From assembly GCF_045037415.1 (NCBI RefSeq), contig NZ_CP173438.1: DNA of 64,000 nt; one strand, written 5' to 3'. Made by a program: the position numbers and the translations under genes. Below, piece by piece: positions 53,523 to 53,853 of the stretch. The stretch is from Escherichia coli. GTDB lineage: Bacteria > Pseudomonadota > Gammaproteobacteria > Enterobacterales > Enterobacteriaceae. The notes beneath the pieces were generated by a model. That model was not told the origin of the DNA and searched no databases. It saw only the letters and a list, made by a program, of their open reading frames with translations. How positions within the stretch are numbered: the stretch's first letter is position 1; every line of letters starts with the position of its first letter.

Positions 53523-53839
53523 AAATTCTCCTGTAAAACGCGGAATATACCGTACCTCTTAGCGGGGAAAAACAGGGTTATGCGGCAACGTCGAAATTAA
53601 ATGTGATCTGCCACGCCTTTTATCACAAAAGTGTCTCCGGAAGTACGATGCAAATTTGCCTGGCAAAATAAGGATAATCAACAAATTACGAATCGCTGCA
53701 CACCTGTGCTGATGACTACTACGCAGAGAAACAAATGTGCAAGAGAAAGCGCTATTTCCCCCCATGCAAAGAGTGAAAAATCGCTTTGAAAGGCCATCAT
53801 GATGGGGTTATATCAGATCAAGCGGTGAGAAAGCGTATT

Positions 53840-53853
53840 TGCACAAATGTGCA
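53840..53853. promoter_or_regulatory. 14-bp perfect palindrome, candidate SorC operator
   Basis: TGCACAAATGTGCA immediately upstream of the sorC RBS; half-site ACAAATGTGCA repeated at 53731-53741. Confidence 0.4.

What the first reader, a model, noticed from the sequence alone, without database searches (positions are those of the whole stretch)
53731..53853. Repeated ACAAATGTGCA motif and a 14-bp perfect palindrome at the sorC promoter
TGCACAAATGTGCA (53840-53853) sits directly upstream of the sorC ribosome-binding site, and the half-site ACAAATGTGCA recurs at 53731-53741. This arrangement suggests autoregulatory operator sites for the SorC-family regulator or a global regulator. A separate 7-bp-stem hairpin CCGTAAT-AAAA-ATTACGG lies in the sorC-sorD spacer (54835-54852).
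Basis: seen in the sequence. Interest (0 to 1): 0.35.

Follow-up and report, generated by a model that had tools for sequence, protein, structure and literature searches.

The report
SorC operator sites controlling sorbose operon
The two repeated motifs are real and are most likely two of three or four binding sites for SorC, the sorbose operon's own regulator, in a control region kept almost unchanged across gut bacteria; this is ordinary gene regulation, but I found no description of SorC's binding site in the papers I could search.

Summary
The window is an E. coli chromosome. The finding lies in the 347-bp rluF–sorC intergenic region, at the left end of the sorCDFBAME island.

**Observation.** Both motifs are at the stated coordinates. 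However, TGCACAAATGTGCA is TGCACA-AA-TGTGCA: 6-bp arms around a non-symmetric AA, not a perfect palindrome. The hairpin is at 54836-54853, one base off.

**What it is.**
- In 27 enterobacterial sorC loci, the core GCAC-N4-GTGC occurs 52 times within 260 bp upstream of sorC and once elsewhere in 182 kb.
- Spacings are invariant: O1–O2 is 31 bp and O2–O3 is 112 bp, although the spacers between sites are only about 39% identical.
- The same dyad lies upstream of SorC-like regulators with the same recognition helix (IYRT[T/S]ISR) in Bacillales and Lactobacillaceae, which control different genes.
- It has the same geometry as the solved B. subtilis DeoR operator: TTGCACA here, TTGAACA there.

**Conclusion.** These are SorC operators. 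O3 sits between the likely promoter and the ribosome-binding site. Conserved CRP-like and IHF-like sites lie upstream. The sorC–sorD hairpin covaries and is probably an RNA element. Nothing here is experimentally tested. It is a new member of a known kind, of moderate interest.

The parts
53599..53620 (.). CRP-like 22-mer AAATGTGATCTGCCACGCCTTT. It marks the left end of the conserved sor control module.
   Evidence: It matches the CRP consensus at 16 of 22 positions, with a perfect left half. TGTGATC is invariant in 26 sequences, and the key right-half C positions are conserved in 26/26 and 23/26. In Pantoea, Serratia and Entomohabitans, homology begins about 5 bp before it. Binding is inferred.
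53622..53635 (.). O4, a candidate fourth SorC dyad: ATCACAAAAGTGTC (core CAC-AAAA-GTG; the outer bases differ from O1 and O3).
   Evidence: ACACAAAAGTGT is near-invariant across 26 sequences. It is one of only three CAC-N4-GTG sites in the intergenic region. Its assignment to SorC is weaker than for O1-O3.
53649..53660 (.). Conserved block TGCAAATTTGCC, with no factor assigned.
   Evidence: Conserved as TGCAA-N-TTTGCC. The arms are 2 bp closer together than in the SorC dyads.
53676..53688 (+). IHF-like core AATCAACAAATTA (consensus WATCARNNNNTTR).
   Evidence: The consensus positions are invariant in 25 of 26 sequences, while the four N positions vary freely. There are 7 matches in the 64-kb window against 4.1 expected, so the support comes from conservation rather than occurrence.
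53697..53710 (.). O1, a SorC operator dyad: TGCACACCTGTGCT.
   Evidence: One mismatch to TGCACANNTGTGCA. The GCAC and GTGC arms are invariant in 25-26 of 26 sequences while the central 4 bp vary. It is always 31 bp from O2.
53728..53741 (.). O2, a degenerate SorC dyad: GAAACAAATGTGCA.
   Evidence: CAAATGTGCAA is invariant in 28 sequences and the left arm is degenerate. It is a full dyad in Kluyvera (TGCACAAACGTGCA). It is always 112 bp from O3, or 101 bp in Kluyvera.
53764..53783 (+). Conserved TG(C/A)AA-N5-TGAAAA direct repeat, an A-rich block just upstream of the putative -35.
   Evidence: Conserved in the alignment. Kluyvera lacks 11 bp here. It could be an UP element or an activator site; this is unexplained.
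53786..53814 (+). Putative weak sigma-70 promoter: TTGAAA (53786-91), 17-bp spacer, TATATC (53809-14).
   Evidence: GGGTTATATCAGATCA (53805-20) and CTTT (53784-87) are near-invariant. The spacing is fixed in all species, except +1 in Serratia. The consensus scan did not report it because the -10 lacks the final T. The transcription start is not mapped.
53840..53853 (.). In the 16-bp family frame it is TTGCACAAATGTGCAG, 53839-53854.
   Evidence: ATTTGCACAAATGTGCAG is invariant in 26 of 28 sequences. It lies between the putative -10 and the ribosome-binding site, and is fused to the ribosome-binding site in most genera. It has the same geometry as the DeoR left half-operator (OL).
53870..54817 (+). 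sorC, a SorC/DeoR-subfamily regulator of 315 aa.
   Evidence: Residues 1-46 are identical to K. pneumoniae SorC (PDB 2W48), whole-protein E = 1e-182. RefSeq annotates it as a sugar-binding transcriptional regulator, followed by SDR oxidoreductase, PTS IIA/IIB/IIC/IID and sorE genes.
54836..54853 (+). Stem-loop between sorC and sorD: CCGTAAT-AAAA-ATTACGG.
   Evidence: A consensus hairpin is predicted in 24 species. Three of its 5 core pairs show compensatory changes: CG to UA in 11 sequences, GC to AU in 11, and GC to AU/GU in 7. The E. coli spacer folds at -14.5 kcal/mol, z = -2.05. No U tract follows it, the terminator scan did not list it, and there is no Rfam match.

Best explanation
The two motifs belong to a set of operator dyads for SorC, the first gene product of the sorCDFBAME operon. 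The consensus is TTGCAC-N4-GTGCAA, with core GCAC-N4-GTGC.

Proposed mechanism:
- A dimer of SorC helix-turn-helix domains binds each dyad. Two such dimers are joined through the sugar-binding domains into a tetramer, as in the SorC, DeoR and CggR structures, so one tetramer can hold two dyads.
- O3 lies between the probable promoter (TTGAAA-17-TATATC) and the ribosome-binding site. Its occupancy represses the operon, including sorC itself.
- O1 and O2 lie 31 bp apart upstream, at about -118 and -87 from the putative start. They give cooperative binding and probably loop to O3 across the promoter; the O2–O3 distance is fixed at 112 bp.
- Binding of the sorbose-derived inducer would loosen the tetramer or the loop. 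This would free the promoter and leave SorC upstream, where it could activate.
- Conserved CRP-like and IHF-like sites further upstream would add catabolite control and DNA bending.

Status of each step:
- Shown: the sequences, their conservation, their fixed spacing, and their link to the SorC-type recognition helix.
- Inferred: that SorC binds them, the position of the promoter, the looping, and the activation step.
For: 1. **Locus.** E. coli rluF | sorC-SDR-PTS IIA/IIB/IIC/IID-sorE. The SorC DNA-binding domain is identical to that of K. pneumoniae SorC, PDB 2W48.
2. **Clustering.** Both GCAC-N4-GTGC sites of the 64-kb window fall in the 347-bp intergenic region; 0 of 2000 shuffles match this.
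3. **Specificity across species.** In 27 enterobacterial loci (182 kb), 52 of 53 GCAC-N4-GTGC sites lie within 260 bp upstream of sorC, against 0.13 expected there. The other site is at -303 from sorC in one species.
4. **Footprint.** Conserved blocks are 85% identical to E. coli and spacers 39%, though the blocks were defined after seeing the alignment. In O1 the arms are invariant and the centre is free.
5. **Spacing.** O1–O2 is 31 bp and O2–O3 is 112 bp in all 25 orthologues that have O1. Kluyvera has 101 bp, which is 112 minus 11, about one helical turn.
6. **The motif follows the DNA-binding domain, not the pathway.**
   - SorC-like regulators with helix IYRTTISR next to RpiA-like and oxidoreductase genes in three Bacillales genera carry TTGCACAATTGTGC and TGTACATTTGTGCAA.
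   - A Lentilactobacillus plasmid gene has TTGCACAAATGTGTC abutting its ribosome-binding site.
   - A Priestia glucitol PTS operon (helix IYRTSISR) has GCACAAATGAAC and GCACAAATGTGC 20 bp apart.
   - A C. difficile homologue with the DeoR-type helix ISRPTISR instead has ATTGAACAAATGT.
7. **Structural precedent.** The DeoR left half-operator (OL), ATTGAACAAAATTTCAAT, was solved with the homologous DNA-binding domain. It has the same 16-bp frame, TTGxA-N6-TxCAA. The DNA-contacting arginines R34 and R39 of DeoR align with R35 and R40 of SorC.
8. **Literature.** SorC represses and activates the sor operon and crystallises as a tetramer with two separated pairs of DNA-binding domains (PMC2943609).
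Against: - There is no binding or expression experiment. The transcription start is unknown, and the best promoter candidate fails the consensus scan.
- O1–O2 are 31 bp (three turns) apart. DeoR, CggR and the Firmicute SorC-like loci have dyads 19-23 bp apart, and the SorC crystal was said to suit sites about two turns (about 70 Å) apart. One tetramer may therefore not span O1 and O2.
- The one-turn change in Kluyvera is a single evolutionary event, in a locus that is not a sorbose operon.
- The same perfect 16-bp dyad occurs twice, 109 bp apart, beside a LacI-family regulator in two metagenome contigs. The sequence is therefore not exclusive to SorC-type proteins.
- A metagenome scan from motif to gene found a SorC-like gene in only 1 of 80 loci. 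That test had little power.
- O4 differs in its outer bases and may belong to another factor.
Confidence: 0.75

Rival explanations
1. The dyads are bound by a regulator other than SorC. This could be a host global factor, or a LacI-type repressor that recognises TGCACA-N2-TGTGCA, with SorC acting elsewhere in the region.
For: Two metagenome contigs carry two perfect TTGCACANNTGTGCAA dyads 109 bp apart between a LacI-family regulator gene and an ABC sugar transporter. This shows that another family may use this sequence. No experiment links SorC to the sites.
Against: - No LacI-type gene lies next to the sor operon.
- The dyad accompanies SorC-like genes with the same recognition helix in five separate gene contexts across two phyla.
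- It changes to TTGAACA where the helix is of the DeoR type.
- A host global factor would have to be shared by Enterobacterales, Bacillales and Lactobacillaceae.
Confidence: 0.08
2. O3 acts as an RNA hairpin in the sorC 5' untranslated region, controlling translation or mRNA stability. On this view it is not a DNA operator, and the other copies are incidental.
For: If transcription starts near 53821, O3 is transcribed and can form a 7-bp stem just upstream of the ribosome-binding site. In most genera it abuts the ribosome-binding site.
Against: - The leader fold is unexceptional: z = -0.43, and 63 of 200 shuffles fold at least as well. The ribosome-binding site is not sequestered.
- The loop bases AAAT are as invariant as the stem, which is not the pattern of an RNA structure.
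- Related dyads O1, O2 and O4 lie upstream of the probable promoter.
- In O1 the arms are fixed and the centre varies, as expected for a protein-binding DNA dyad.
- There is no Rfam match.
Confidence: 0.05
3. The repeats have no function. They are chance similarity, preserved only because the sor island spread recently by horizontal transfer.
For: Window-wide counts of near-matches are at chance level. The island is present in only 2865 of 5426 E. coli genomes, so it is mobile on evolutionary time scales.
Against: - Spacer columns between the blocks are only about 39% identical between genera, so there has been ample time to diverge.
- Conservation falls exactly on the dyad arms.
- 52 of 53 core matches in 182 kb lie upstream of sorC.
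- The same dyad is found with homologous regulators in Firmicutes.
Confidence: 0.02
4. Secondary item: the sorC-sorD hairpin is an RNA element that sets the ratio of regulator to structural-gene expression. It would act as a processing or stability stem-loop within the polycistronic mRNA. It is not an intrinsic terminator and not a protein-binding DNA palindrome.
For: - The stem is kept while its sequence changes between clades: CCGTAAT/ATTACGG, CATAA/TTATG and CGCAG(C)/(G)CTGCG. Three of 5 core pairs show double changes.
- The E. coli spacer folds better than shuffles, z = -2.05.
- In the related cggR-gapA operon, the regulator is also the first gene and its level depends on differential mRNA processing (PMC2943609).
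Against: - Only about three independent clades carry the covariation.
- No cleavage or stability data exist.
- No U tract follows the stem, so it is not a classical terminator.
- A weak pause or attenuator cannot be excluded.
Confidence: 0.35

Closest known systems
[quoted passage not shown]
   Same: - The regulator has a homologous helix-turn-helix plus sugar-phosphate-binding domain (E = 1e-39).
- The recognition helices are nearly identical: RTTISRLL in SorC, RPTVSRLL in DeoR.
- The operator dyad has the same 16-bp frame: TTGCAC-AAAT-GTGCA here, TTGAAC-AAAA-TTTCAA there.
- One good palindrome is paired with a degenerate partner site that is bound through tetramer avidity.
   Different: - The half-site differs at one base (C rather than A at position 4).
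- Partner sites are 31 bp and 112 bp apart, not about 21-23 bp.
- There are three to four sites rather than two.
- One site lies downstream of the promoter.
- The regulator is reported to activate as well as repress.
- deoR is not the first gene of the operon it controls.
B. subtilis CggR and the gapA operon (SorC/CggR subfamily)
   Same: - The regulator is the first gene of the operon it represses.
- The operator lies downstream of the transcription start (+32 to +77).
- A tetramer binds two half-operators.
- The regulator's level is also set by mRNA processing. This parallels the position of O3 and the sorC-sorD stem-loop.
   Different: - CggR has a winged-helix DNA-binding domain and a different operator (CGGGAC...GTC repeats).
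- Its two half-sites are adjacent.
- No activation role and no distant upstream sites are described.
E. coli GalR OE-OI and AraC O2-I1 repression loops (my own knowledge, not checked here)
   Same: Two operators about 100-200 bp apart bracket a promoter. One is downstream of the start, and helical phase matters. AraC switches from a looped repressor to an adjacent-site activator when it binds sugar. That is the kind of switch that would explain SorC's dual role.
   Different: These are different protein families (LacI/GalR and AraC). Looping at sor is only inferred, from the fixed 112-bp spacing and a single 11-bp variant.
E. coli LsrR (SorC/DeoR subfamily, lsr operon)
   Same: It is a homologous tetrameric repressor (E = 1e-28), with two binding boxes in a control region that also depends on CRP.
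   Different: The published LsrR boxes are A/T-rich and poorly defined (AAAACT, AAAACTGAA, and so on; PMC8487509). They could not be compared usefully with the sor dyads. The LsrR helix is RLKVSRLL.

Membership tests
Operator of a SorC/DeoR-subfamily regulator | A cognate gene for a regulator with a SorC-type helix-turn-helix and sugar-binding domain lies adjacent. | tested here: met
   sorC begins 16 nt after O3. It matches 2W48 at E = 1e-182, and PF04198 plus helix-turn-helix families are precomputed for its homologues.
Operator of a SorC/DeoR-subfamily regulator | A dyad-symmetric site with the TTGxAC half-site and the 16-bp frame seen in the DeoR-DNA structures. | tested here: met
   O3 is TTGCACAAATGTGCAG and the DeoR left half-operator (OL) is (A)TTGAACAAAATTTCAA(T). 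The frame is the same and 11 of 18 bases are identical.
Operator of a SorC/DeoR-subfamily regulator | The motif tracks the recognition helix across homologues. | tested here: met
   RT(T/S) helices go with GCAC-N4-GTGC in five gene contexts. RPT helices go with TTGAACA (DeoR). The number of independent groups is small.
Operator of a SorC/DeoR-subfamily regulator | Two half-operators about two helical turns apart, contacted by one tetramer. | tested here: inconclusive
   Firmicute homologues have sites 19-20 bp apart. The enterobacterial sor region has 31, 75 and 112 bp.
Operator of a SorC/DeoR-subfamily regulator | Direct, inducer-sensitive binding of the regulator. | not testable with these tools
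   This needs a gel-shift or footprint. No paper in the searchable library reports it.
cAMP-CRP binding site | TGTGA-N6-TCACA in a 22-bp frame, at a position compatible with class I or class II activation. | tested here: inconclusive
   53599-53620 matches at 16 of 22 positions, with a perfect left half and conserved right-half C positions. It would lie at -211.5 from the only promoter candidate. An N4 frame (TGTGA-TCTG-TCACA) fits some species as well.
IHF binding site | Core WATCARNNNNTTR. | tested here: met
   AATCAACAAATTA at 53676-88. Consensus positions are invariant in 25 of 26 sequences and the N4 positions are free. Binding was not tested.
Intrinsic (rho-independent) terminator, considered for the sorC-sorD hairpin | A G+C-rich stem followed directly by a run of U. 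| tested here: not met
   The stem is A/T-rich and is followed by CGGGTCC. The terminator scan did not report it.
Sigma-54 promoter, considered for O3 | GG and GC elements 10 bp apart (TGGCAC-N5-TTGC). | tested here: not met
   TTGCAC-AAATG-TGCA lacks the GG doublet and its spacing is one base short (direct reading). SorC is not an enhancer-binding protein.
Sigma-70 promoter | -35 and -10 hexamers 16-18 bp apart, with A at position 2 and T at position 6 of the -10. | tested here: inconclusive
   TTGAAA-17-TATATC is conserved but lacks the final T, and the scan did not report it. That is consistent with an activator-dependent promoter. The transcription start is not mapped.

The most novel reading that the evidence does not exclude
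The sor control region is a fixed-geometry, multi-operator switch. A SorC tetramer would exchange dyad partners when it binds the sorbose-derived inducer, moving from an O2-O3 repression loop around the promoter to an upstream O1/O2 (and O4) complex. An IHF-induced bend about midway between O4 and O2 would fold a remote CRP site back toward the promoter. That would be the first mechanistic account of how a SorC-family protein can both repress and activate. It would also give a one-residue/one-base recognition rule for the subfamily: RTT helix with TTGCACA, RPT helix with TTGAACA.
Probability: 0.2. Interest if true: 0.55.

Novelty: new member of a known kind. Interest (0 to 1): 0.38.

Why it matters
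SorC gave its name to a large family of sugar and quorum-sensing regulators, and its crystal structure has been known since 2009. A 2010 paper states that operators had been identified only for DeoR and CggR, and I found no later paper giving one for SorC.

A concrete operator consensus, with three to four sites at invariant distances, turns two old questions into simple experiments. The questions are how SorC both represses and activates, and how a tetramer built for sites two turns apart handles sites 31 and 112 bp apart.

It also offers a test of base recognition in the SorC/DeoR helix-turn-helix, and a ready-made sorbose-responsive promoter/operator module. If the sites were already noted in the 1990 Klebsiella sequence paper or in a regulon database I could not consult, the value falls to a confirmation.

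Tried and rejected
- **Sigma-54 promoter at O3.** Rejected: no GG doublet, and the spacing is wrong.
- **Second, CRP-dependent promoter upstream** (-10 = GATAAT, 53673-78). Rejected: there is no usable -35, CRP would sit at about -75.5, and the conserved bases are exactly the IHF consensus.
- **A CRP site at AGTGA-N6-GCTTT (53772-87).** Rejected: the right half does not match and the left half is not conserved.
- **A partner dyad about 20 bp from O3 or O1.** None is conserved. Klebsiella has a weak AGCAAATATGTGAT 15 bp upstream of O3, but it is absent in E. coli.
- **O3 as an RNA hairpin.** The fold is unexceptional.
- **The sorC-sorD hairpin as a terminator.** No U tract follows it.
- **Rfam.** No match in either region.
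- **Metagenome scan with TTGCACANNTGTGCAA.** Of 80 loci, only one had a SorC-like gene, and that gene was 2.2 kb from the motif. Chance matches swamp a 14-base pattern in so large a collection, so the test was uninformative.
- **Protein search for mid-distance homologues.** The 120 proteins listed were all at least 70% identical, so it added no new lineages.
- **LsrR boxes.** They are too poorly defined to compare.
- **Primary papers.** Wöhrl 1990, Wehmeier 1992 and de Sanctis 2009 are not held. I could not check whether the start site or the palindromes were described there.
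Full report
**Where this is.** The window is an E. coli chromosome. A 601-bp query around the finding matched 5425 of 5426 complete E. coli genomes, but only 2865 of them over its full length. In the others, homology stops at window position about 53557. The annotated neighbours are rluF (minus strand, ending at 53522), a 347-bp gap, then a 'sugar-binding transcriptional regulator' (sorC, 53870-54817), an SDR oxidoreductase, PTS IIA/IIB/IIC/IID genes of the mannose/sorbose type, sorE, and pepE. The finding therefore lies in the control region at the left end of the sorbose (sor) island. The sorC product is 315 aa. It matches the crystal-structure sequence of K. pneumoniae SorC (2W48) at E = 1e-182, and residues 1-46, which form the DNA-binding domain, are identical.

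**Checking the observation.** TGCACAAATGTGCA is at 53840-53853 and ACAAATGTGCA recurs at 53731-53741. The 14-mer is not a perfect palindrome. It is TGCACA-AA-TGTGCA, with two 6-bp arms around a non-symmetric AA. The hairpin CCGTAAT-AAAA-ATTACGG is at 54836-54853, one base to the right of the stated position.

Taken one at a time, these motifs are not impressive:
- Near-matches in the 64-kb window are at the level expected by chance.
- An 11-mer direct repeat appears in 46 of 2000 dinucleotide shuffles of the intergenic region.

What is not chance is the clustering:
- A search for the dyad turned up a third copy, TGCACACCTGTGCT, at 53697-53710.
- The core GCAC-N4-GTGC occurs only twice in the whole window, both times here. 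None of 2000 shuffles gives two.
- The looser core CAC-N4-GTG occurs three times here. None of 2000 shuffles gives three.

**Comparison between species.** A scan of one genome per species returned 27 enterobacterial loci with a SorC protein 70-99% identical to the query. They come from Escherichia, Pseudocitrobacter, Citrobacter, Klebsiella, Raoultella, Mangrovibacter, Pantoea, Serratia, Cedecea, Entomohabitans, Enterobacter and Kluyvera. Aligning their upstream regions gives a clear footprint. Between genera the spacer columns are about 39% identical to E. coli, close to saturation, while the blocks are about 85% identical. The blocks were chosen after seeing the alignment, so these figures describe the pattern rather than test it.

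The blocks, in window coordinates, are:

| Element | Coordinates | Sequence |
|---|---|---|
| CRP-like 22-mer | 53599-53620 | AAATGTGATCTGCCACGCCTTT |
| O4 | 53622-53635 | ATCACAAAAGTGTC |
| Unassigned block | 53649-53660 | TGCAAATTTGCC |
| IHF-like core | 53676-53688 | AATCAACAAATTA |
| O1 | 53697-53710 | TGCACACCTGTGCT |
| O2 | 53728-53741 | GAAACAAATGTGCA |
| A-rich TG(C/A)AA direct repeat | 53764-53783 | ATGCAAAGAGTGAAAAATCG |
| Putative -35 | 53786-53791 | TTGAAA |
| Invariant block holding the putative -10 (TATATC, 53809-14) | 53806-53820 | GGTTATATCAGATCA |
| O3 | 53840-53853 | TGCACAAATGTGCA |

Further points on the dyads:
- O3 with its flanks (ATTTGCACAAATGTGCAG) is identical in 26 of 28 sequences.
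- In O1 the GCAC and GTGC arms are fixed while the four central bases vary.
- In O2 the right arm and centre (CAAATGTGCAA) are invariant and the left arm is degenerate.
- Across 182 kb of these loci, GCAC-N4-GTGC occurs 53 times. Fifty-two lie within 260 bp upstream of sorC, where composition predicts 0.13. The remaining one is at -303 from sorC in Entomohabitans.

**Spacing.** O1–O2 is 31 bp and O2–O3 is 112 bp in every one of the 25 orthologous sequences that have O1. The CRP-like site, O4, the IHF-like core and the promoter blocks are likewise fixed to within one base, although the sequence between them has diverged freely. The sorC–sorD spacer in the same genomes varies from 71 to 78 bp, so indels are not rare in this material.

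The two Kluyvera species are the exception. There the region upstream of O2 is absent, both remaining dyads are full palindromes (TGCACAAACGTGCA and TGCACATATGTGCA), and they are 101 bp apart, which is 112 minus 11, about one helical turn. That locus is not a sorbose operon. It reads rluF | SorC-like regulator (70% identical) | shikimate-dehydrogenase-like gene | pepE.

In Pantoea, Serratia and Entomohabitans the upstream context is different, and homology begins about 5 bp before the CRP-like site. This defines the left edge of the module. A plasmid-borne sor operon in Serratia proteamaculans has the same layout.

**Which protein binds?** The dyad follows the SorC-type DNA-binding domain rather than the regulated pathway.

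| Organism | Locus | Recognition helix | Neighbouring genes | Upstream sites |
|---|---|---|---|---|
| Terrilactibacillus, Pseudalkalibacillus, Paenibacillus | L027-L029 | GIYRTTISR(L/M)LK | RpiA-like isomerase and Gfo/Idh/MocA oxidoreductase | TTGCACAATTGTGC, TTGCACAATTGTAC, TGTACATTTGTGCAA |
| Lentilactobacillus (plasmid) | L046 | NIYRTTISR | truncated SorC-like gene | TTGCACAAATGTGTC, directly before the ribosome-binding site |
| Priestia megaterium (plasmid) | L168 | DIYRTSISR | glucitol PTS operon | GCACAAATGAAC and GCACAAATGTGC, 20 bp apart |
| C. difficile (plasmid) | L047 | GISRPTISR (DeoR type) | 2-oxo acid dehydrogenase genes | ATTGAACAAATGT |

- In the three Bacillales genera (43-47% identical to SorC) the paired sites are 19-20 bp apart. 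In Pseudalkalibacillus the second site directly abuts the ribosome-binding site, as O3 does.
- The Lentilactobacillus and C. difficile cases come, and the Priestia case.

The C. difficile result agrees with the experimentally solved case. B. subtilis DeoR (helix ISRPTVSR) binds ATTGAACAAAATTTCAAT, with base contacts in TTGAACA made partly by R34 and R39 (PMC11229326). Those residues align with SorC R35 and R40. Laid side by side, TTGCAC-AAAT-GTGCA and TTGAAC-AAAA-TTTCAA share the same 16-bp frame. In DeoR, a good palindrome is combined with a degenerate second site that is bound only through the avidity of the tetramer. O2 looks like such a site.

The literature I could read states that SorC both represses and activates the sor operon. 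It also states that SorC crystallises as a tetramer with two protruding pairs of DNA-binding domains, and that as of 2010 operators were known only for DeoR and CggR (PMC2943609). No paper in the library contains the dyad sequence or describes a SorC operator. The primary Klebsiella and E. coli sor papers and the SorC structure paper are not held.

**How it most likely works.** I take O1, O2 and O3 (and less surely O4) to be SorC operators.

- **Promoter.** The only plausible sigma-70 promoter is TTGAAA-17-TATATC. It is conserved but weak. It lacks the final T of the -10 and the consensus scan did not report it. That fits an activator-dependent promoter.
- **Positions.** If transcription starts near 53821, the site centres fall as follows:

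  | Site | Centre relative to the putative start |
  |---|---|
  | O3 | +26 |
  | O2 | -86.5 |
  | O1 | -117.5 |
  | IHF-like core | about -139 |
  | O4 | -192.5 |
  | CRP-like site | -211.5 |

- **Repression.** SorC on O3 would block transcription of the operon, including sorC itself. This is the arrangement seen for CggR, whose operator lies at +32 to +77.
- **Looping.** The rigid 112-bp distance, together with the 11-bp difference in Kluyvera, suggests that a tetramer bridges O2 and O3 across the promoter.
- **Bending.** The IHF-like core lies 53.5 bp from O4 and 52.5 bp from O2. A sharp bend there could bring the far upstream sites back toward the promoter.

All of this is inference. The main difficulties are:
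- The transcription start is unmapped.
- O1–O2 are three helical turns apart, where the family norm is two.
- The Kluyvera change is a single evolutionary event.
- Two metagenome contigs carry the same perfect dyad twice, 109 bp apart, next to a LacI-family regulator, so the sequence is not exclusive to SorC-type proteins.

**The hairpin.** Across 24 species the sorC–sorD spacer keeps a stem-loop at the same place while its sequence changes:
- CCGTAAT/ATTACGG in Escherichia and Pseudocitrobacter
- CATAA/TTATG in Citrobacter
- CGCAG(C)/(G)CTGCG in Klebsiella, Raoultella and others

Three of the five consensus pairs show compensatory double changes. The E. coli spacer folds better than shuffled versions, at z = -2.05. 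No U tract follows the stem, so it is not a classical terminator, and no Rfam family matches. The most likely role is an RNA processing or stability element that uncouples the level of the regulator from that of the structural genes, as in the cggR-gapA operon. My confidence in this is low.

**Verdict.** This is a new member of a known kind: an operator set for the founding member of a well-studied family, with the same recognition geometry as DeoR but an unusual multi-site, fixed-distance layout. Interest is moderate.

Noticed in passing
window 53599-53620: A CRP-like site, AAATGTGATCTGCCACGCCTTT, matching the consensus at 16 of 22 positions. TGTGATC is invariant in 26 sequences. It forms the left edge of the conserved sor control module, about 211 bp upstream of the putative transcription start.
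   Followed up: partly
window 53676-53688: A perfect IHF core, AATCAACAAATTA. The consensus positions are invariant across genera while the four N positions vary. It lies about midway between O4 and O2.
   Followed up: partly
window 53649-53660 and 53764-53783: Two further conserved blocks with no assigned factor: TGCAAATTTGCC, and a TG(C/A)AA-N5-TGAAAA direct repeat just upstream of the putative -35. Kluyvera lacks 11 bp in the second block.
   Followed up: no
window 53605-53608 and 53816-53819: Two invariant GATC (Dam methylation) sites. One is inside the CRP-like site and one is just after the putative -10, within the 15-bp invariant block GGTTATATCAGATCA.
   Followed up: no
window ~53557; E. 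coli genomes: The sor island is present in 2865 of 5426 complete E. coli genomes, with its left junction at about 53557. One strain (EC65) has an IS1 under the split match spanning rluF and the start of sorC (window 53400-54000).
   Followed up: partly
L023 and L024 (Kluyvera), about 2870-5700: Between rluF and pepE, Kluyvera carries a 70%-identical SorC-like regulator plus a shikimate-dehydrogenase-like gene instead of the sorbose operon. It has two perfect dyads 101 bp apart.
   Followed up: partly
L005, L006, L010, L012-L014, L016, L031, about 300-420 bp upstream of sorC: Several genera have an extra roughly 90-bp segment between rluF and the sor region. By eye it resembles an ERIC/IRU repeat (CTCACCC..GTCAC...GCTCC..GG..TTC). 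This was not tested.
   Followed up: no
L099 1225-1349; L110 4035-4159 (metagenome contigs): Two perfect TTGCACANNTGTGCAA dyads lie 109 bp apart in the divergent region between a LacI-family regulator gene and an ABC sugar-transporter operon. Another regulator family may therefore use the same dyad.
   Followed up: partly
window 53854-53872, compared with L005-L031: In most other genera sorC appears to start two codons further upstream (ATG-GCG/ACG-ATG...), with the ribosome-binding site GGAG fused to O3 (TGTGCAGGAG). E. coli has a separate AGGAGG and uses the downstream ATG.
   Followed up: no
window 54858-54880: In the E. coli fold, the sorD ribosome-binding site pairs with the conserved TCCT/TCCC segment downstream of the hairpin. 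The consensus fold of 24 species did not predict this pairing.
   Followed up: no
window 50487-50683, 48299-48448, 36465-36535, 40695-40765, 48514-48584: Rfam matches elsewhere in the window: the lysine riboswitch upstream of lysC, STnc430, and three naRNA4 copies.
   Followed up: no
L168 (Priestia megaterium plasmid), 2350-2452: A SorC-like regulator upstream of gutM and glucitol PTS genes has two dyads (GCACAAATGAAC and GCACAAATGTGC) 20 bp apart. This suggests a family-typical two-turn operator for a glucitol operon in Bacillales.
   Followed up: partly
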